From IMG/VR virus record IMGVR_UViG_3300050821_009523: a DNA stretch of 26,964 nt. One strand, 5' to 3'. Below, in pieces: positions 9,168-24,009 of the stretch (positions are counted from its first letter, which is position 1; the number at the start of each line of letters is the position of its first letter). The notes under the pieces were generated by a model. It was given only the letters and a program-made list of their open reading frames with translations. It ran no database searches and was not told the DNA's origin. The position numbers and the translations under genes were made by a program. The stretch comes from a virus. Taxonomy: Duplodnaviria > Heunggongvirae > Uroviricota > Caudoviricetes.

Positions 9168-10295
9168 ATGCCCGACACCCTAACGCTTAACGAGCAGGTG
9201 GCGGACGACACGGTTGCGCATGCAATCGATCTTACGTCCGTCGAGGCAGATCTCGAAGAGAAAGCGCTCGGCTCGCTTGAGCAGTTGGAATCGATCTTGG
9301 TGCAGCAACTCTCCGCAGCAGACCTTGGCAGCGACGGGAGCCCAAGCCTGACACCGTACGCACGACACCGCTTGGAGATGCTGCTGCAACAGACGCGCGA
9401 CACGATCCGCACTACCTACACAGCGATCAACGCGGCGCACACCGTAGGGCTCACGGACTTGGCCAACCTTGCGTCCGCCTTTGCCGAGGGCGTCATCTCG
9501 CCCGTGGCGCTACAGATCGAGATCGATACTGTCGCGCTGACAGCCGGGCAGTTGCGCGCCATTGTGTCAGACGCGCTGATCCAGGGCGCGCCCTCGGCCG
9601 AGTGGTGGTCACGCCAGGCGGGCGATCTGGTGGAGCGTTTCTCCGACACGATGCGCATGGGGCTGATGCAGGGCTGGACCAACGACCAGCTCGTGCGGGC
9701 TGTGCGCGGCACCGCATCGTGGGTTGGCGGCCGGCGGGTGTACAACGGCGGCATCATGGACATCACGGCGCAGAACGCAGAGAGCCTTGTGCGCACCAGC
9801 GCGCAGGCCGTGGCTAGTGCTTCGCGACGGGACACCTACAGATCGAACAGCGATGTAGTGAAGGGCATCGTGCAGATCTCCACGCTCGACAATCGAACCA
9901 CATTGACCTGCATCTCTTACGACCGCGAGGCGTGGCTCTTCCCCGATATGCAGCCCATCGGCACAAAACGCTTGCCGTACAACAGCGGAACGCCGCGACA
10001 CTGGAGGTGCAGGAGTACGGAATCCGGACTGCTTAAGTCGTGGCGCGAGCTTGGCATCGACATGAATGATCTGCCGGTGGGCGAGCGCATTTCGTCGGAC
10101 GGCAAGGTGCCGGCAGATATCACCTTTGACGAGTGGCTTGCGCGCCGCACGCCAGCACAGCAGGACGCGCAACTTGGGCCGGGGCGTGCCGCGCTGTGGC
10201 GCAATGGTAAGATCAACTTAAAGCAGCTGCTCGACGGGCGCGGCAACCCGCTGACGCTAGAGCAGTTATATGCAAAGTACGGGAGGCCAAAGTGA
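9168..10295 (+). CDS. Phage minor head / head morphogenesis protein (SPP1 gp7 / Mu gpF family)
   Basis: AESLVRTSAQAVAS, QISTLDNRTTLTCISYD, PRHWRCRST, ITFDEWL, QQDAQLGPGRAALWRNG; alternative start at 9144. Confidence 0.9.
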   Translation: MPDTLTLNEQVADDTVAHAIDLTSVEADLEEKALGSLEQLESILVQQLSAADLGSDGSPSLTPYARHRLEMLLQQTRDTIRTTYTAINAAHTVGLTDLANLASAFAEGVISPVALQIEIDTVALTAGQLRAIVSDALIQGAPSAEWWSRQAGDLVERFSDTMRMGLMQGWTNDQLVRAVRGTASWVGGRRVYNGGIMDITAQNAESLVRTSAQAVASASRRDTYRSNSDVVKGIVQISTLDNRTTLTCISYDREAWLFPDMQPIGTKRLPYNSGTPRHWRCRSTESGLLKSWRELGIDMNDLPVGERISSDGKVPADITFDEWLARRTPAQQDAQLGPGRAALWRNGKINLKQLLDGRGNPLTLEQLYAKYGRPK

Positions 10296-15133: not shown

Positions 15134-16447
15134 GTGGACTACCGCCCGCTCGGTTATCAGTATCGCATTTTCCGCTCGCCGAAAGAACGGCTGTTCATCG
15201 GAGGCGGAATCGGCGTCGGCAAAACTGACACGGGCAGTGTTTGGACACTGATGCGCGCCAAGCAGGCGCCGGGAGATGTCTTCGGCATTATTGCGGCGCA
15301 CACCTACCAGCAGCTCATCGACGTAACGGTCCGCAACTTCTTCAAAAACCTAGACAATTGGGGCATACCGCATCTCCCAAAGGCCCTACCTGGTAGCTCG
15401 CGCCCATTCACAGTCCGGGTGTGGAATGGCAGTCGGTGGGTGGATCACCTCTGCCGCTCGCTTGATAGTCCCGAGAACCTCTCTGGCCTCGAGGCCGGCT
15501 ACTGGTGGTGTGACGAAGCGTGGCAAGCAACACGCGAGGCGGTTGATATCCTGCTTGCGCGTGACCGCGACAAGCGCATGCACAACCAGGGCCTATTTAC
15601 AACAACCCTTTACGAGCCTACCTCGTGGATGTACGAAACCTTTGTCGAGCGCTTCGACGAGCGCCTCATGGAAGTGATCTATGCGCCGACTTGGCTCAAT
15701 GCAAAGAATCTGCCCGATGGTTACATCAGGCGCATGAAGGCGATGTACAGCGTGCGCCAGTACCAGCGTATGATCGAAGCCAAGTGGGTAACGCTTGCGA
15801 GCGGGCAGGTGTATTATGCCTTCGATCGCAAGGTGCATGTGCAACAGCACGCGGAGTTTGATCCGCATTTGCCGATTCTCTGGACGCACGACTTTAACAT
15901 CGGGCAAAACAAGCCGATGTCAAGCGCGCTGTGTCAGATCAGGCGCGCGATCGGCAAGGACGGCTGGCGGCCGGAGCTCGTTGTCTTCGACGAGCTGGTG
16001 CTAGACAGCAGCGATACTTCGGATTCTATAGCGGAGTTTCGTGCACGCGGTTGGCAAGACAAGCTCAAGACAAAGCACGCTGTCTGGATCTACGGTGACG
16101 CCAGCGGGCGAGCGCACGACACACGCAGCAGGACAAGCGATTACAAGATCCTTGCGGATGCTGGTTTTGTGCAACAGCGTGTGCCGCTTGCGAACCCACA
16201 AATCAGGACACGCCACAATTCTACGAACGCCCTCCTCAAGAACGCTGCCGGAGACGTGCGGTGCTATGTTCACCCACGCTGCACCACGCTGGCGAAAGGT
16301 TTAGAGACTGTCCGCGTTAAAAAGGGCGCGCAGTACGTGGAAGAGCAGACGCGGGAATCGCACATCACATGTTCGTTGGGATATTTAATAGAGGCAGAAT
16401 TCCCCTCCGCGGGGCCACGCGGAGGTTCTATGGAGCTGCCTATATAA
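15134..16447 (+). CDS. terL: Terminase large subunit
   Basis: Walker A GGIGVGKT, Walker B YWWCDEA, coupling motif FTTT, nuclease motifs WTHDFNIG and IYGDASG. Confidence 0.95.
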   Translation: MDYRPLGYQYRIFRSPKERLFIGGGIGVGKTDTGSVWTLMRAKQAPGDVFGIIAAHTYQQLIDVTVRNFFKNLDNWGIPHLPKALPGSSRPFTVRVWNGSRWVDHLCRSLDSPENLSGLEAGYWWCDEAWQATREAVDILLARDRDKRMHNQGLFTTTLYEPTSWMYETFVERFDERLMEVIYAPTWLNAKNLPDGYIRRMKAMYSVRQYQRMIEAKWVTLASGQVYYAFDRKVHVQQHAEFDPHLPILWTHDFNIGQNKPMSSALCQIRRAIGKDGWRPELVVFDELVLDSSDTSDSIAEFRARGWQDKLKTKHAVWIYGDASGRAHDTRSRTSDYKILADAGFVQQRVPLANPQIRTRHNSTNALLKNAAGDVRCYVHPRCTTLAKGLETVRVKKGAQYVEEQTRESHITCSLGYLIEAEFPSAGPRGGSMELPI

Positions 16448-16670
16448 CCTCGTGGTCTGGCACTGCGTCTTCCAAACCCAAGGCCCGTAGACAGATCCGG
16501 CAATTGAGCAACATAAAACCGTCTTGCGGCCTGCCGTCGTGCAGCTCGGGCTGCGGGCCTACGATGTAACCGCAAAGCGCCGGGCCGACAGTTGGGCCAG
16601 CATAATGCCGCACCCAATGTGGATAGCGAGTCTTGAGCCGGAGCTCGAAAACCGATGTCATGCGCGTCAT
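16440..16670 (-). CDS. Small Zn-finger-like protein (76 aa)
   Basis: GGAGG RBS; H...ALCG...NCRIC; convergent with and overlapping the terL stop. Confidence 0.62.
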   Translation of the reverse strand: MTRMTSVFELRLKTRYPHWVRHYAGPTVGPALCGYIVGPQPELHDGRPQDGFMLLNCRICLRALGLEDAVPDHEVI

Positions 16671-16695
16671 GTCAGTACCTCCGCGAGCCACATGC

Positions 16696-16726
16696 GCCGG
16701 CAGGGGGGGGGGCAACCACTGCCGGC
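16696..16726 (-). other. Stem-loop downstream of the precursor-peptide gene containing a G10/C10 homopolymer
   Basis: GCCGGCAG (16696-16703) / CTGCCGGC (16719-16726); G run at 16703-16712. Confidence 0.5.
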
Positions 16727-16740
16727 CAAGTGGACGTGCC

Positions 16741-16947
16741 TTAGCGGTGGTGCGCGTTATCGCAGTTGAACGGCACTAGGTTGGACCCTACCCAACAGAT
16801 GCAGTTGGAAAACCCGTTGCACACGCTGCCATCGCACGTAGCGTAGGTGCCACCGCACAAGAGCGTAATGAAGCCACCCTGCGCGCACCGCAGGTTTCCG
16901 GTTTCCAGGTGGCGTAGCGTCTCACGGTGCAACTTGAGCTTTCTCAT
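16741..16947 (-). CDS. RiPP (lanthipeptide-like, double-glycine) precursor peptide, 68 aa
   Basis: GGGAG RBS; leader MRKLKLHRETLRHLETGNLRCAQGG, then a 43-aa core with 6 Cys and 6 Ser/Thr. Confidence 0.8.
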   Translation of the reverse strand: MRKLKLHRETLRHLETGNLRCAQGGFITLLCGGTYATCDGSVCNGFSNCICWVGSNLVPFNCDNAHHR

Positions 16948-16974
16948 CGTATTGTCTCCCGTATTGCGTTGGCA

Positions 16975-16995
16975 GCACCCGGCGAATCCGGGTGC
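16975..16995. other. Perfect 8-bp hairpin upstream of the precursor gene
   Basis: GCACCCGG-CGAAT-CCGGGTGC; no U-tract on the minus strand. Confidence 0.5.
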
Positions 16996-17006
16996 GCCCG
17001 TACCAG

Positions 17007-17483
17007 TCAGAAAGGAATCTCGCCGTCTTCAGGATGTTTGCGCACATCAGTCACCTCGACGGGATCGCGCATCTTGGCCGATACTACTGCCTCGTAGACA
17101 ACAAACGTCTTGCGTGGTGCGCAGCGGGCCAAATCCTTGGCTTGGTTGACGGCACTCTCTAGTGTTTCGTGCTCGGCGAAGCCCCGCTCCCTGACTTGCG
17201 GCCAAGGGTTTTCTAGACATACAACGATAAAACCTGCGCCTTTCATCTCACTCCCCCCGGTTGTTGCGTTCCAACGGCCGCGGTAGCGCTGCATGTTGGT
17301 GGGCGTCTCGGCTATCAGTACTGCCATCACGCTGCTAACGGCGGCATGCTGTAGCGCGCCAATGTTCCCCTCTTGCCGCGCTAGGGCTGTACGCAGGAAA
17401 GTAAACTCCGTGCGCACCTCGCCGCGCAGGCGGTGCAGCTCGGTTGTGATGCGGCCGAGGGCTTCTTTGGTTTCGGCGTCCAT
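17007..17483 (-). CDS. Hypothetical protein (158 aa); probable internal start at 17246 giving a 79-aa C-terminal product ending DGEIPF
   Basis: TGATG-coupled start at 17483; GGGGGGAG RBS before in-frame ATG 17246. Confidence 0.6.
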   Translation of the reverse strand: MDAETKEALGRITTELHRLRGEVRTEFTFLRTALARQEGNIGALQHAAVSSVMAVLIAETPTNMQRYRGRWNATTGGSEMKGAGFIVVCLENPWPQVRERGFAEHETLESAVNQAKDLARCAPRKTFVVYEAVVSAKMRDPVEVTDVRKHPEDGEIPF

Positions 17484-17678: not shown

Positions 17679-17754
17679 TGGCGCGGCGTGCGGGGATCGA
17701 ACCCGCCGCTTCCGGGCTACAAGGCCGGCGCGTCACCGTTGGCGCTCCCGCCGC
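17679..17754 (-). tRNA. Degenerate tRNA-Thr(UGU)-like gene, 76 nt, with encoded CCA
   Basis: GCGGCGG/ACGCCGC acceptor, D loop with GG, anticodon arm CCGGC-CTTGTAG-CCCGG, T arm GCGGG-TTCGATC-CCCGC, 3' GCCA; several non-canonical positions. Confidence 0.75.
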
Positions 17755-19165
17755 TCTCGTCGTCGCTGTCTACTGCCTGCGCTTGCGTATCGACGCCCTC
17801 CTCGATCGCGATCCACTCCACAACGCGCTCCGAGAAGCCAGAGATGCGCCGCCAGCCGGCCGACGTATCAATGCTCGGCTTATACGGCGCCACGTTGATG
17901 ATGTAGTTGTGGGTGCCGAGGCGCCGTGCCGTCGCGGGGTTGGCCTTGTGGTCGCAGTCCTGTTCGTCCGTAAAGACGATCACGCGGGCAAACGGCTGCT
18001 CGCCGAGCGTGCGCAGTTTGTCGGCGATCCAGTCCATGCACTGCTTCAGGAAGATGCCGCCACCACCAAGCTGGCAAGGTGCGTGGTGGATCGCATCCCG
18101 CAGGGCAAACCCGCGACGCGGCGGCAGGGCGGCAGTGGCGTGCTGCTGTCGGTGATCGCACCCGCCCGTGGCGTAGATCTCCACGTCCTCGCATACCTCG
18201 CGCACCAGCATCGCTAGCCCGCAGGCCGCATCGATGCGGTCCAGCGTGGACTTGCCGCCAAGCGCGCCGCCCATGCTGCCTGACACGTCCACTACCAGCG
18301 CGGTGCGGCCCGGTAGCTTGGGCATCGCGCCGAGGGACGCGAGCATGGCCTGCTCAAGGGCCGGCTCGTACGCAGGGGCGGCCTTTGCAGCCGCGATGTA
18401 GCGGTAGGGCAGTACCTTGGCATGGGGCGCGCCAGCCACCAGCGCTACGCGCGCGATGCTGCGGTCTACACCTGCCTGCTCCATGTTGCGGAGATTCTGC
18501 AAAAGCGCAGAATAGCCCAGCAGCTTGCCGGCCAATAAGCGCTCCCACGTCGCTTTCTTGTCCGCACCGCTGGAAAGCGCCACCTCCCAGGTGTCGGGGG
18601 CAGCAAGCGTGCCGTCCACGAGCTGCTTCCAAAGTGCGGCTTGCGCCTCGTCCTTGGGCTTGGCGTGACAGAGAAACAGCGCATCCCGCAGCTTCACCTT
18701 GCTGTCGCGGTTCCACTTGGCAAGCTGATACTCGGAGAAGCGCTGAAAGGCGAACGCGAGCCCGCGCTTCACCTGTGCGGCAAGCGGTTGTCGCTTCTCT
18801 TGCCAGTAGAGCGAAAGAAACTCGCTGCACTCGTCCGGCCGGCGGATCACGGCCGCCAGCGTGTCGCCCGCAAGCCGGCTGCCGGGGTGCAGGCGCACCA
18901 ACTGGCGTACGAGGTACAGCGGGACGTGCCGCAGGTGCATGCTGGTGCGCGCCTCAACGGCCAGCGCGGCCAACTCCTCGGGCCGCACCTTGGCGCACAG
19001 CTCGGTGACACGGGCCGCGATGCTGCTGCCTGTCTCGTAGAACGTGTCCTCGAATAGCAAGCACGTCGAGACGGCGCGCCGCAGCTCGGCAAACGCGGTT
19101 TGCGGGCCTGCCTTGGCGCCCTCGTGCGTCGTGGCGGTAGTGCGTGCTGCGGTGTTGGTCTTCAT
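17717..19165 (-). CDS. rsr: Ro60-related TROVE + VWA RNA-binding protein (482 aa)
   Basis: ELRRAVSTCLLFEDTFYE, EARTSMHLRHVP, LAKWNR, VKLRDALFLCHAKP, PDTWEVALS, LLQNLRN, LPYRY, VWA MIDAS-like VVDVSGSM and VIVFTDEQ; GGGAGG RBS before ATG 19165. Confidence 0.95.
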   Translation of the reverse strand: MKTNTAARTTATTHEGAKAGPQTAFAELRRAVSTCLLFEDTFYETGSSIAARVTELCAKVRPEELAALAVEARTSMHLRHVPLYLVRQLVRLHPGSRLAGDTLAAVIRRPDECSEFLSLYWQEKRQPLAAQVKRGLAFAFQRFSEYQLAKWNRDSKVKLRDALFLCHAKPKDEAQAALWKQLVDGTLAAPDTWEVALSSGADKKATWERLLAGKLLGYSALLQNLRNMEQAGVDRSIARVALVAGAPHAKVLPYRYIAAAKAAPAYEPALEQAMLASLGAMPKLPGRTALVVDVSGSMGGALGGKSTLDRIDAACGLAMLVREVCEDVEIYATGGCDHRQQHATAALPPRRGFALRDAIHHAPCQLGGGGIFLKQCMDWIADKLRTLGEQPFARVIVFTDEQDCDHKANPATARRLGTHNYIINVAPYKPSIDTSAGWRRISGFSERVVEWIAIEEGVDTQAQAVDSDDESGGSANGDAPAL

Positions 19166-19193
19166 GGCGTACTGGCCTCCCGGTCCAGGCACT

Positions 19194-19278
19194 ATCTTGG
19201 TCACGAAAGGAATGGACGCCGGCAGGAGGATCTTCTTAAGAGGAAGTACCTGCAAGCTACGCCATCTCGTGGCCAAGG
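19194..19278 (-). ncRNA. Y-RNA-like unit C (minimal, no tRNA domain)
   Basis: Shared 22-nt motif TGGCGTAGCTTGCAGGTACTTC (19264-19243); closing stems GCAGG/CCTGC, ATGG/CCAT and CTTGG-CACGA/TCGTG-CCAAG. Confidence 0.65.
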
Positions 19279-19292
19279 TCAAACTCTCATAC

Positions 19293-19437
19293 CTTGTCCC
19301 TGGGGGTACAAGCGGGCAGAGTGTCTTGCTCCTGGTGCTCTACCAACTGAGCTAACGGCCTTACGGCCGTGGCGGACTCGAACCGCCGACCCCCAGGTCC
19401 AGTGAAGTATCTCTGCTCTACGCCACCCAAGGGCAAG
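19293..19437 (-). ncRNA. yrlA: YrlA-type Y RNA with circularly permuted tRNA-like domain (unit B)
   Basis: 5' GGGTGGCGTAGAGCAGAGATACTTC; CCTGG, T arm GGCGG-TTCGAGT-CCGCC, acceptor stem ACGGCC-GTAA-GGCCGT, D arm GCTC-AGTTGGTA-GAGC, CCAGG; 3' CTCTGC...CTTGTACCCC; adjacent to the Ro60 gene. Confidence 0.9.
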
Positions 19438-20635: not shown

Positions 20636-21790
20636 TCACGCCGCGTACCGCAGGAGCGCCGAGCCGCGCTGCTCTAGCGCCAGCCGGTCGTCTTGGTGCT
20701 GGATGCTGCGCGCCTTGGCCGTGACGCCCTGCACGATCTGCCAGAGCGTGCGGGCGTCGCCCTCCTCGGCCTTTGCGCTTTCGATGATCTGCGTGGCCTC
20801 ACCCTTGGCGAATGCCTGCTTACGCAGCCACGCGATCACCTCGTCGTCCGTGTTGCCGAGTTTGAAACGGCTGGCGGCTTCTAGGCGACGCTTCACGTCC
20901 TGGACGCTGGCGTCCGCATACTTGGCCAGCATGGGCTGTGCCTCGCGCCGGAAGCGGTCCGGGCCGCCGGCCGTGTGCCGCACAGTGAAGGTCTTGACCT
21001 CCTCGGCGCCCCAGATCGTGCGGTTGTCGCAGCAGTAGTCGTACAGGAAAGTCATCAGCCCAAACGTGGCGCTGCCCACCTCGCTATTCCACGTAATGAA
21101 GCCGCGGTGCAGGTTGCGCACGCCGTCGCCCTCCAAGCGGATCTCCACGTCATGCGCCTCGTCCACCAGAAAGATGAAGCAGTCACGGTCGCTGGCGTAC
21201 AGTGTGGTGGCGCGCTGCGGGTTCTGCGCCTTGTAGCTCGCGCTTGGCACATGCCAGCGGCCGTCTTGGTTGACGTCGATCACGGCCTGCACCACCTCGC
21301 GGTCGTAGATCCGGCCGTAGTCGCGGCCCGTGATGCAGCGCAGGGTGTCGATTGGTGGCCGGCCGGCCTGCTCCCAAGCCTGCAACTCGGCCTCGGTCGT
21401 AGCCATGGGGCCATTCTCGGCCATGATCTGCACCGAGTCTTTGGCGGCGAGCATCTGGATGCCGTAGTTGAGGGCATAGGATGCGAGCGATGGGCCGCCC
21501 GTGTGCGTGCCGATCGTACGGAGCCACTTGGCGGGCACCTGCGCCATGCTGGCCAACTGTCCAAACGACCAATGTGTTGGTGCCAGCATCCCCATCTCGG
21601 TGTCGATGAGCAGCTCACTGCCGGCCTTGTCCTCGCCCTGCACCTTGAAGTGCTTGTTGGGCGTCACCTGTACCTCGCAACGCTCGGCGCGCGCCGTGAC
21701 GGCGGCTAGCAGCGATTCGAGGGTGAGGTAGCGCTCGTCTGCTGGACGTGCGGCCCACTGCGCCGATGCGATACTGAGATCCTGTGACAT
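20636..21790 (-). CDS. DUF932 family protein (384 aa)
   Basis: WAARPADERY, LRCITGRDYGRIYD, LYASDRDCFIFL, RGFITWNSEVG, CCDNRTIWG, RHTAG; GGGAGG RBS. Confidence 0.85.
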   Translation of the reverse strand: MSQDLSIASAQWAARPADERYLTLESLLAAVTARAERCEVQVTPNKHFKVQGEDKAGSELLIDTEMGMLAPTHWSFGQLASMAQVPAKWLRTIGTHTGGPSLASYALNYGIQMLAAKDSVQIMAENGPMATTEAELQAWEQAGRPPIDTLRCITGRDYGRIYDREVVQAVIDVNQDGRWHVPSASYKAQNPQRATTLYASDRDCFIFLVDEAHDVEIRLEGDGVRNLHRGFITWNSEVGSATFGLMTFLYDYCCDNRTIWGAEEVKTFTVRHTAGGPDRFRREAQPMLAKYADASVQDVKRRLEAASRFKLGNTDDEVIAWLRKQAFAKGEATQIIESAKAEEGDARTLWQIVQGVTAKARSIQHQDDRLALEQRGSALLRYAA

Positions 21791-23130: not shown

Positions 23131-24009
23131 TTGATCCCGCTTGCCAACTATCGCGTTGCGCCTAAAGCTCCTGGCATCTATCTCATTTTCAACGGCGCCA
23201 GCGGCATGCAGTATGTCGGGCAGGCTTTCAACCTGCGCACGCGGATCTATCGCCACCACTTTGAGCTATCCAAGCGTAGGCACGGATCGCAGTATCTACA
23301 GCATGCCTTCGCCAAGTATGGCGCAGAGGCGTTTTCCTATTTCATCCTTGAACGTTTAGAGAGAGGTGCGGGGCTTAAGGACGCGCTAATGGAGCGCGAG
23401 CAGTATTGGATCGACCAATGGCCAGCTAACCTGCTTTATAACGCAGTCCCCAAGGCTGGGTGGACGGCGTTGGGAGTAAAGCGTAGTGACGCCACGCGTG
23501 CGCGCCTAAGTGCGTCGTTGAGGCGCCTTGGACGAAAACCAACACCAGAGCAGTTCGCAAAAGCTCGCGCTACGATAGCGAGTTGGACGCCAGAAGAAGC
23601 AGCTGCCGTCTTTGCGCGCCGCTCAATTGGGCATAAGGGCAGGTTTCCCACGGCAGAGGCTCGCGCAAAGATGAGCGCGGCTCAAGCGCGGCGAGAAACT
23701 AAGTATCATAGCTCTGAATCTCGCGCCAAGATGAGCGAGGCTCATCGCGCTCATAACCTAACACCCGAAACGCGCGCGCGGATGAGTGCTGCTGCGAAGG
23801 CCCGTAAGGATCGCAAGCCGGCGAGCCAGGAAACGAGAGAGAAGATTAGCCTTGCCAACCGCGGCAAGAAACGCGCTGCTGCGGTGGTCGCTGCCGCGCG
23901 CGAACGCGTGATAGCTAGAGTACAGCCGCAAAGCAAGGGAACCGGTCGCTTTGTGTCTAAGGCACCGACACCGACTAAGCAGATGGCGCTCTGGCCGGAG
24001 GACAAATAA
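23131..24009 (+). CDS. GIY-YIG homing endonuclease with NUMOD3-type repeats
   Basis: PGIYLIFN...QYVGQA..LRTRI..H, EREQYWID, YN; repeats PTAEARAKMSAA, HSSESRAKMSEAH, LTPETRARMSAA, ASQETREKISLANRGKK. Confidence 0.92.
   Translation: MIPLANYRVAPKAPGIYLIFNGASGMQYVGQAFNLRTRIYRHHFELSKRRHGSQYLQHAFAKYGAEAFSYFILERLERGAGLKDALMEREQYWIDQWPANLLYNAVPKAGWTALGVKRSDATRARLSASLRRLGRKPTPEQFAKARATIASWTPEEAAAVFARRSIGHKGRFPTAEARAKMSAAQARRETKYHSSESRAKMSEAHRAHNLTPETRARMSAAAKARKDRKPASQETREKISLANRGKKRAAAVVAAARERVIARVQPQSKGTGRFVSKAPTPTKQMALWPEDK

What the first reader, a model, noticed from the sequence alone, without database searches (positions are those of the whole stretch)
16741..16947. Orphan lanthipeptide-like RiPP precursor encoded by a phage
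Seen: 68-aa ORF with good RBS, leader MRKLKLHRETLRHLETGNLRCAQGG and core FITLLCGGTYATCDGSVCNGFSNCICWVGSNLVPFNCDNAHHR (6 Cys, 6 Ser/Thr). No LanB/LanC/LanM, peptidase-ABC exporter or immunity gene is recognisable in the window. Established: KLxLx(K/R)ETLxxL...GG leaders are typical of class I/pinensin-like lanthipeptide precursors in Bacteroidota, Myxococcota and Acidobacteriota; GG marks C39-peptidase cleavage; anti-phage lanthipeptide clusters have been reported in Actinobacteria. Inference: the phage supplies only a substrate, either hijacking host enzymes to make a new antimicrobial/signal peptide or acting as a leader decoy that jams a host RiPP defence pathway.
Basis: partly seen in the sequence, partly recalled or inferred. 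Interest (0 to 1): 0.88.

Follow-up and report, generated by a model that had tools for sequence, protein, structure and literature searches.

The report
Phage-borne lone lanthipeptide-type precursor gene
A complete 97-kb phage genome carries a real, conserved 68-codon gene for a peptide whose leader matches that of bacterial lanthipeptide (ring-stapled peptide) precursors. The phage has none of the enzymes or exporters such a peptide needs, so it most likely relies on its host's machinery.

Summary
The ORF is real: window 16741-16947, minus strand, 68 aa, RBS GGGAGA, GC3 0.77.

- **Conservation.** A 59%-identical homologue sits at the same place, convergent with terL, in a related phage contig. 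A third member shows 13 synonymous against 1 non-synonymous change across the 40-codon core.
- **Leader.** It has the LxLx[K/R]x5L...GG form. It is the best hit in the phage genome (31-32 bits, E about 1e-8) to a profile built from leaders lying directly beside LanB in Acidobacteriota and Myxococcota-like MAGs. It does not reach NCBIfam NF038153.
- **No enzymes.** The phage (terL, portal, CheckV 100%) has no LanB, LanC, LanM, YcaO, radical-SAM, C39 or ABC exporter.
- **Second gene.** A second such gene lies 43 kb away and does pass NF038153.
- **Bacterial context.** Three Acidobacteriota genomes carry 32-48 scattered leader matches each but only 1-3 LanB loci, so supply in trans is already normal there.

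Best reading (0.55): a substrate-only precursor matured and exported by host LanB/LanC and a C39 transporter. The selection on the core argues against a pure leader decoy.

Chemistry, host and function are untested. This scan has noted similar lone precursors before, in this genome and in at least three other phages. I found no paper describing them.

The parts
16741..16947 (-). Precursor-peptide gene (P0001, 68 aa). Leader codons are 16947-16873 (25 aa, ends QGG), core codons 16872-16744 (43 aa, 6 Cys, 6 Ser/Thr, C-terminal HHR), stop 16743-16741.
   Evidence: Translation. GC3 0.77. Homologues P0002 and P0008. Selection pattern. Leader profile hit of 31-32 bits.
16955..16960 (-). Ribosome-binding site GGGAGA, 7 nt upstream of the ATG.
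   Evidence: Read from the sequence.
16975..16995 (-). Perfect 8-bp hairpin (GCACCCGG-ATTCG-CCGGGTGC) in the 59-nt spacer between the upstream gene and the RBS. Role unknown.
   Evidence: Sequence. Fold.
16688..16733 (-). GC-rich hairpin 8 nt after the stop codon, with stem GGCCGGCAG...CTGCCGGC and no U-tract. Hairpins with the same CTGCCGGCGC arm follow the homologous genes in L001 and L037, so it probably marks the 3' end of the cassette.
   Evidence: Folds. Not stronger than shuffled sequence over the whole 96 nt (z 0.43). No Rfam family.
16440..16670 (-). 76-aa ORF with a GGAGG RBS directly downstream. No family match. Absent from the related contig L001. Function unknown.
   Evidence: (called as a gene in the ENA assembly).
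17007..17483 (-). 158-aa gene immediately upstream on the same strand. No family match. It is not one of the RiPP enzyme families searched for.
15134..16447 (+). Large terminase subunit, convergent with the precursor gene. This is the synteny anchor shared with L001.
   Evidence: Terminase_6N and phrog_2. 85% identity to the L001 terL.

Best explanation
The gene encodes a substrate-only RiPP precursor of the class I lanthipeptide type.

Proposed mechanism:
1. The N-terminal 25 residues form an LxLx[K/R]x5L leader.
2. The leader ends in a double-glycine site, with hydrophobic residues at -4, -7, -12 and -15.
3. During infection the phage supplies only this peptide.
4. The host's LanB dehydratase and LanC cyclase would recognise the leader and form thioether rings between the conserved Ser/Thr and Cys of the core.
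5. A host C39-peptidase ABC transporter would cut after GG and export the 43-residue product.

Shown here:
- The gene is real and its core is under purifying selection.
- The leader belongs to a family that sits beside LanB/LanC in bacteria.
- The phage lacks all the enzymes.
- In Acidobacteriota, dozens of such precursors already lie far from the one to three LanB loci.

Inferred, not shown:
- The host identity.
- That modification and export occur.
- What the mature peptide does. Candidates are an antimicrobial, a signal, or an agent against rival phages.
For: 1. **Real, selected gene.** The homologue sits at the syntenic place next to terL. Against P0002, 14 synonymous codon differences fall among the 32 conserved residues. 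P0002 against P0008 shows 13 synonymous and 1 non-synonymous change in the core.
2. **Leader family.**
   - The LxLxKx5L motif with GG, often with a C39 protease in the cluster, is described for class I LanAs in PMC7268733.
   - Leaders of this form lie directly beside full-length LanB in L016 and L014, and beside LanB-LanC in L028, L029 and L027.
   - A profile of those 7 leaders scores P0001 at 31.1 bits, E 1.7e-8, best of 2,150 frames; the next unrelated frame has E 0.76.
   - The six-frame search gave the same result, with only two hits in the phage.
3. **Sister gene.** It passes NF038153 at 22.9 bits.
4. **No enzymes in the phage**.
5. **Supply in trans is normal in the likely donor group.**
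   - Acidobacteriota genomes G001, G002 and G003 have 32, 48 and 44 scattered leader matches.
   - Those three genomes have only 1-3 LanB loci each.
   - They have 2-5 C39 matches each.
   - Their cores are hypervariable and rich in Cys and Ser/Thr.
6. **Core residues kept.** All six Cys are kept between P0001 and P0002. Four Ser/Thr are invariant in the automatic alignment. The other two are kept as TxxTC if the one-residue gap is moved.
Against: - P0001 does not reach NF038153, or any Pfam or PHROG model.
- The arrangement of Ser/Thr upstream of Cys is no better than in shuffled cores: 5 of 6 Cys can be partnered, and 8-10% of shuffles do as well.
- The host is unknown, so no host LanB/LanC can be named.
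- Most of the scattered bacterial precursors are themselves not shown to be LanB substrates.
- Some loci lie near radical-SAM, flavin monooxygenase or metallopeptidase genes instead.
- No tyrosine integrase was found. A lasting producer lysogen is therefore not evident, and it is unclear when host enzymes would have time to act.
- No expression data.
Confidence: 0.55

Rival explanations
1. An unmodified, or only disulfide-bonded, double-glycine-leader peptide. A host peptidase-containing ABC transporter cuts and exports it, as with class II bacteriocins and microcins. The six core Cys form three disulfides rather than thioethers.
For: - Canonical GG site with hydrophobic residues at -4, -7, -12 and -15 (sequence).
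- An even number of core Cys.
- The Ser/Thr-Cys arrangement is not significant against shuffles.
- All leader-bearing genomes tested have C39 transporters.
- Most scattered bacterial relatives have no enzyme nearby.
Against: - The leader family is found directly beside LanB/LanC in five clusters.
- The N-terminal LxLxRx5L part is the best-conserved stretch, yet C39 cleavage is not known to need it.
- All six Ser/Thr are kept between P0001 and P0002.
Confidence: 0.2
2. A precursor for another leader-dependent modification, such as radical-SAM thioether formation or oxidation, carried out by host enzymes that share the same leader family.
For: - Radical-SAM genes lie near two of the 12 bacterial loci.
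- A flavin monooxygenase sits next to the L013 and L018 precursors.
- P0005 gives a weak match to a radical-SAM target family.
Against: - Those neighbours are not consistent across loci.
- One radical-SAM neighbour carries UPF0004, Radical_SAM and TRAM domains. From my own knowledge that architecture is typical of MiaB-type tRNA methylthiotransferases, not RiPP enzymes.
- The only repeated, immediate enzyme neighbours are LanB and LanC.
Confidence: 0.1
3. A leader decoy. The peptide occupies the leader-binding site of host LanB or the C39 transporter and blocks a host lanthipeptide pathway, for example an anti-phage one. The core would not matter.
For: - The phage brings a leader and no enzymes.
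- Anti-phage lanthipeptides have been reported in actinobacteria (bioRxiv 10.1101/2024.06.26.600839, listed; I did not read it).
Against: - The core is under stronger purifying selection than the leader: 13 synonymous to 1 non-synonymous in the core, against 5 to 4 plus an indel in the leader.
- Cys and Ser/Thr positions and the C-terminal HH[KR] are conserved.
- Candidate hosts already make dozens of competing leaders.
Confidence: 0.07
4. Not a functional gene, only a chance open frame in GC-rich DNA.
For: Such frames are very common here: 237 of 50 aa or more in the window. P0001 matches no curated family.
Against: - Syntenic homologue and a third member showing purifying selection.
- RBS present and codon-position GC bias.
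- Leader profile match at E 1e-8.
Confidence: 0.02

Closest known systems
Class I lanthipeptide precursors (LanA) with LxLxKx5L...GG leaders (NCBIfam NF038153 lant_leader_L1a; the pinensin-type family of Bacteroidota; Walker et al. 2020, PMC7268733)
   Same: - Leader motif, double-glycine end and a Cys plus Ser/Thr core.
- Relatives of the leader lie beside LanB/LanC.
   Different: - Arg replaces Lys in the motif.
- P0001 is below the curated model's threshold.
- It is encoded by a phage with no LanB, LanC or C39 transporter.
- The core has no bacterial relative in the databases searched.
Prochlorosins (many ProcA precursors scattered in the genome, one promiscuous LanM). The scattering is stated in PMC7268733; the rest is from my own knowledge.
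   Same: The logic of supply in trans: a conserved leader, hypervariable cores, and dozens of dispersed precursor genes served by very few synthetases. This is seen here in Acidobacteriota.
   Different: - A different leader family (Nif11/NHLP).
- A class II LanM enzyme rather than LanB/LanC.
- Cyanobacterial.
- I found no report of phage-borne members.
Complete bacteriocin/RiPP gene clusters on prophages, such as sublancin on SPbeta (Dragos et al. 2021, 'Phages carry interbacterial weapons encoded by biosynthetic gene clusters'). Known to me; the paper itself is not held, but it is cited by 35 held papers.
   Same: A phage carries genes for a ribosomal peptide natural product.
   Different: Those elements bring precursor, enzymes, exporter and immunity together. 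Here only the precursor is present.
Double-glycine-leader peptides exported by peptidase-containing ABC transporters (class II bacteriocins, microcins, competence pheromones). From my own knowledge.
   Same: A GG cleavage site with the usual hydrophobic spacing.
   Different: - Those leaders lack the N-terminal LxLxKx5L block.
- Their genes normally sit beside their transporter and immunity genes.

Membership tests
Class I lanthipeptide precursor, L1a-type leader | LxLx[K/R]x5L motif in the leader | tested here: met
   Residues 4-14 read L-K-L-H-R-ETLRH-L. The motif definition comes from PMC7268733. Arg stands in place of Lys.
Class I lanthipeptide precursor, L1a-type leader | Leader ends in Gly-Gly, with hydrophobic residues at -4, -7, -12 and -15 | tested here: met
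   G24-G25, with A at -4, L at -7, L at -12 and L at -15 (read).
Class I lanthipeptide precursor, L1a-type leader | Score at or above the curated cut-off of NF038153 (22 bits) | tested here: not met
   No hit for P0001 by hmmscan or in the six-frame genome search. The sister gene scores 22.9 bits. P0004, P0005 and L001 ORF A score 14-16 bits.
Class I lanthipeptide precursor, L1a-type leader | Leader homologous to leaders encoded directly beside LanB/LanC | tested here: met
   A profile of 7 LanB-adjacent leaders scores P0001 at 31.1 bits, E 1.7e-8, and at 32.4 bits, E 1.2e-8. Caveat: those leaders were found with motif-based searches, so the test is partly circular.
Class I lanthipeptide precursor, L1a-type leader | Core with Ser/Thr placed N-terminal to partner Cys | tested here: inconclusive
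   5 of 6 Cys can each have their own upstream Ser/Thr within 7 residues, but 8-10% of shuffled cores do as well. The positions are conserved in P0002.
Class I lanthipeptide precursor, L1a-type leader | Cognate LanB and LanC in the same cluster or genome | tested here: not met
   No PF04738, PF14028, PF05147 or PF13575 in the 97-kb genome. The controls for PF14028 and PF13575 did not ring in any genome, so those two absences are weaker.
Class I lanthipeptide precursor, L1a-type leader | Dehydrated residues and (methyl)lanthionine rings in the product | not testable with these tools
   Needs mass spectrometry of peptide made alongside the enzymes.
Double-glycine peptide exported by a C39 ABC transporter | Cognate peptidase-ABC transporter encoded nearby | tested here: not met
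   No PF03412 in the phage. The only ABC_tran signal is a 13.5-bit Walker-A match. All five leader-bearing bacterial genomes have C39 transporters.
Prochlorosin-like dispersed precursor system (as a way of working, not a family) | Many scattered precursors with one conserved leader and hypervariable cores, served by few synthetases | tested here: met
   Met in candidate donor or host genomes, not in the phage. There are 32, 48 and 44 leader matches in G001, G002 and G003 against 1-3 LanB loci. Cores are listed.

The most novel reading that the evidence does not exclude
Phages of soil Acidobacteriota carry substrate-only lanthipeptide precursors. These plug into a host system in which a few LanB/LanC enzymes serve dozens of scattered precursor genes. 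During infection the host machinery would then make a phage-specified ring peptide that serves the phage, for example against rival phages or uninfected neighbours. That would be a viral auxiliary gene consisting of nothing but an enzyme substrate. It would also make phages movers and diversifiers of RiPP core libraries.
Probability: 0.35. Interest if true: 0.8.

Novelty: new variant of a known kind. Interest (0 to 1): 0.6.

Why it matters
Known phage-borne peptide weapons come as complete gene clusters. A phage that carries only the substrate would show a different form of host exploitation: borrowing a promiscuous modification and export pathway.

It also draws attention to an apparently undescribed feature of Acidobacteriota. 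They carry dozens of dispersed class I-type precursors for each LanB/LanC set, much like prochlorosins but with different enzymes. If confirmed, phage genomes become a source of new lanthipeptide cores and a handle on what these peptides do in soil communities.

Everything beyond sequence and context is still inference.

Tried and rejected
**Searches with the peptide itself**
- Pfam, NCBIfam and PHROGs on P0001 gave nothing usable. The only hit was a 15-bit DUF4081 match, which I take as chance.
- The word-based protein search found only the protein itself. A profile of the three family members found no more.
- ESM Atlas look-alikes with Lant_leader_dom scored 0.83-0.86, a lead only. PF28317 is not in the local Pfam library.

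**Viral contig scans**
- The leader pattern gave 32 stretches, none confirmed.
- A DNA pattern gave 3 chance matches inside portal and other genes.
- Five terL relatives at 32-50% identity carry no leader-type ORF.

**RNA and regulatory signals around the gene**
- Rfam around the gene gave only an 18.9-bit Pxr match at E 0.89, rejected.
- No sigma-70-like promoter and no canonical terminator.

**Sequencing runs**
- None was listed, and no RNA holder was listed.

**Host search**
- terL relatives in 8 of 401 Acidobacteriota genomes are only 31-35% identical.
- A 20-kb DNA search of 401 genomes matched only the Ro60-like gene, a DUF932-type gene and a short RNA motif. None was examined for CRISPR arrays.
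- The host remains unknown.

**Other tests**
- The shuffle test of Ser/Thr-Cys spacing was not significant.
- The L037 neighbours match no PHROG, so that contig's nature is open.

**Not run**
- No complex or structure prediction.

**Literature**
- Six searches found no report of phage-borne lone lanthipeptide precursors.
- PMC11118758 concerns host RiPPs and phages, not phage-encoded precursors.

Full report
**Observation**

A GGGAGA ribosome-binding site lies 7 nt before the ATG. The leader is 25 residues and ends in QGG. The 43-residue core has 6 Cys and 6 Ser/Thr and ends in HHR.

Size alone proves nothing in this 63% GC DNA, where 237 frames of 50 aa or more are open. GC by codon position is 0.49/0.48/0.77, the pattern of real genes here.

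**It is a conserved gene**

HMMER against 1.84 billion representatives found one clear relative, P0002 (60 aa, E 3e-5). It also found two peptides that share only the leader.

P0002 lies on a 3.1-kb metagenome contig (L001), convergent with a large terminase that is 85% identical to the window's terL. That is the same position as in the window.
- terL DNA is still 79% identical, while the peptide gene is no longer detected by blastn.
- Even so, 32 of 60 aligned codons keep the residue, 14 of them with different codons.
- Changes are most frequent at third codon positions.

A third member, P0008, comes from the same 90% cluster but sits in an unrelated context (L037).
- It differs from P0002 by 13 synonymous and 1 non-synonymous change in the 40-codon core.
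- In the 20 aligned leader codons there are 5 synonymous and 4 non-synonymous changes, plus a two-codon indel.
- DNA homology between L001 and L037 is confined to the gene and a 43-nt hairpin element.
- L037 shares nothing else with this phage.

The gene therefore behaves as a small mobile cassette whose core sequence is under purifying selection. A GC-rich hairpin with the shared arm CTGCCGGCGC follows the gene in all three contigs. The same 68-aa gene was also called on an independently assembled ENA contig of 96,958 bp.

**It is a phage, and it has no RiPP machinery**

The window holds terL, a portal gene, a head-morphogenesis gene and a homing endonuclease. The genome is an IMG/VR virus record of 97,023 bp with a CheckV completeness estimate of 100%. 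Contigs of 97,055 bp and 96,958 bp carrying the identical peptide are also on record, which agrees with a discrete replicon of about 97 kb.

Six-frame HMM searches of the whole genome found none of these:
- Lant_dehydr_N, LANC_like, Peptidase_C39, Radical_SAM or YcaO.
- Lant_dehydr_C or DUF4135/LanM. Their controls did not ring in any genome, so these two absences are weaker.
- Any ABC transporter, beyond a 13.5-bit Walker-A match.

The immediate neighbours, a 158-aa gene upstream and a 76-aa ORF downstream, match no family.

A second leader-bearing gene exists 43 kb away (genome 64970-65212, 80 aa, 10 Cys).
- It sits between an SPFH/Band 7 gene and small genes, again without enzymes.
- L001 carries a relative of it in tandem with P0002.

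**What the leader is**

Walker et al. describe class I LanAs of Bacteroidetes that have an LxLxKx5L motif instead of FxLD. Many end in GG, and a C39 protease is often encoded in the cluster (PMC7268733). P0001 has LxLxRx5L and GG, with hydrophobic residues at -4, -7, -12 and -15.

The curated NCBIfam model NF038153 is not reached by P0001. The sister gene passes it at 22.9 bits, and related peptides score 14-16 bits.

A scan of one genome per species returned 12 bacterial loci with KLxLHRET leaders. They come from Acidobacteriota (several Thermoanaerobaculia), 'delta proteobacterium' MAGs and one uncultured bacterium, G001. G001 appears in the sample drawn from the Acidobacteriota phylum.

Where these leaders sit relative to the enzymes:
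- In L016 and L014 the precursors lie directly upstream of a LanB.
- Starting instead from LanB genes, the same leader type appeared beside LanB-LanC-LanC in L028, LanB-LanC in L029, and near LanB and LanC in L027.

A profile of these seven LanB-adjacent leaders gave these scores against the phage genome:

| Frame | Bits | E-value |
|---|---|---|
| P0001 (best of 2,150 stop-to-stop frames) | 31.1 | 1.7e-8 |
| Sister gene | 20.2 | 4.1e-5 |
| Best unrelated frame | 6.6 | 0.76 |

These figures come, and the independent six-frame search agreed. The test is partly circular, because the bacterial leaders were found with motif searches. Their position next to LanB/LanC is an independent fact.

**Supply in trans is normal in the likely donor group**

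With the same leader profile, leader-type frames scatter over the genomes of three Acidobacteriota.

| Genome | Leader matches | LanB | C39 matches |
|---|---|---|---|
| G001 | 32 | full-length LanB on C13, plus weaker matches on two other contigs | 3 |
| G002 (complete 7.66-Mb chromosome) | 48 | 2 loci | 2 |
| G003 | 44 | 2 loci | 5 |
| G005 (Myxococcota-like) | 3, all beside LanB | 3 loci | 5 |

Leaders extracted from 50-odd loci are strongly conserved. The cores are hypervariable, 12-65 residues long, and rich in Cys and Ser/Thr. P0001 falls inside this range.

The closest leader to P0001 is in G001, with an identical RKLKLHRETL stretch. This resembles the prochlorosin arrangement, but with LanB/LanC in place of LanM. 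It makes a phage-borne extra precursor mechanistically plausible.

**Which mechanism**

The core is conserved more tightly than the leader. All six Cys, the Ser/Thr positions and the C-terminal HH[KR] are kept between P0001 and P0002. That argues for a product whose sequence matters, and against a pure leader decoy.

It does not separate thioether rings from disulfides. Five of six Cys can be paired with their own upstream Ser/Thr, but 8-10% of shuffled cores do as well.

My probabilities:
- 0.55: host-matured lanthipeptide precursor.
- 0.20: unmodified double-glycine peptide.
- 0.10: another leader-dependent modification.
- 0.07: decoy.
- 0.02: no gene.

No tyrosine integrase was found, so a lasting lysogen that produces the peptide is not evident.

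**Host**

The host was not identified.
- terL relatives in Acidobacteriota are only 31-35% identical.
- The DNA search matched only the Ro60-like gene, a DUF932-type gene and a short RNA motif.

**Novelty**

Six literature searches found no description of phage-borne lone lanthipeptide precursors. Complete RiPP clusters on prophages are known.

Within this scan the same kind of gene has been noted before: the sister gene of this genome, and genes in at least three other phage genomes. I treated those notes as leads. I re-tested only the sister gene, its NF038153 score and the twister ribozyme after it.

I class this as a new variant of a known kind, of moderate to high interest. The chemistry, the host and the function are all still to be shown.

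Noticed in passing
L012:7971-8213 (-), which is genome 64970-65212, outside the window: A second phage peptide gene: 80 aa, leader beginning MKKNRRRLSLNKETIRAL and ending GG, core with 10 Cys. It passes NF038153 at 22.9 bits. A Twister-P5 ribozyme match (39 bits against a 37.6 cut-off) lies 30 nt after its stop, at L012:7887-7941.
   Followed up: yes
G001, G002, G003 (Acidobacteriota MAGs); examples in L038-L069: These genomes carry 32-48 scattered small frames each with the same conserved leader and hypervariable Cys/Ser/Thr cores, but only 1-3 LanB loci per genome. This is a prochlorosin-like layout with class I enzymes.
   Followed up: partly
window 17679-19282 (-) and 19332-19360: A TROVE/Ro60-like gene (phrog_850, E 5e-42) ends inside a tRNA-Thr-like element (30.4 bits against the Rfam tRNA model). 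A 25-30-nt stretch at about 19332-19360 has exact or near-exact matches in roughly 35 of 401 Acidobacteriota genomes, so it is probably a conserved RNA motif.
   Followed up: partly
window 20636-21790 (-): A DUF932/phrog_1362 gene whose DNA is 68% identical over 675 nt to a place on the G002 Acidobacteriota chromosome (E 6e-54). It is a possible link to the host group.
   Followed up: no
window 23131-24009 (+): A homing-endonuclease-like gene (phrog_314, GIY-YIG type) lies directly upstream of the portal gene. It sits at the edge of the minus-strand accessory block that separates terL from the portal.
   Followed up: no
L012:8841-10268 (-): An adenylosuccinate-synthetase-family gene. PHROGs labels it as PurZ-like. 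An earlier follow-up in this scan concluded that it lacks the aspartate pocket and belongs to a vWA-kinase cassette instead.
   Followed up: no
L001:345-387 and L037:1449-1489: A 43-nt GC-rich hairpin element, 91% identical between the two contigs. It lies after a precursor gene in both, which suggests a shared cassette boundary or terminator.
   Followed up: partly
L017:3406-3977; L013 and L018 around position 10000 and 3800: L017 has three tandem leader-type precursors next to a reprolysin-like metallopeptidase. The L013 and L018 precursors lie next to a flavin monooxygenase. These are possible alternative tailoring or processing partners for the same leader family.
   Followed up: no
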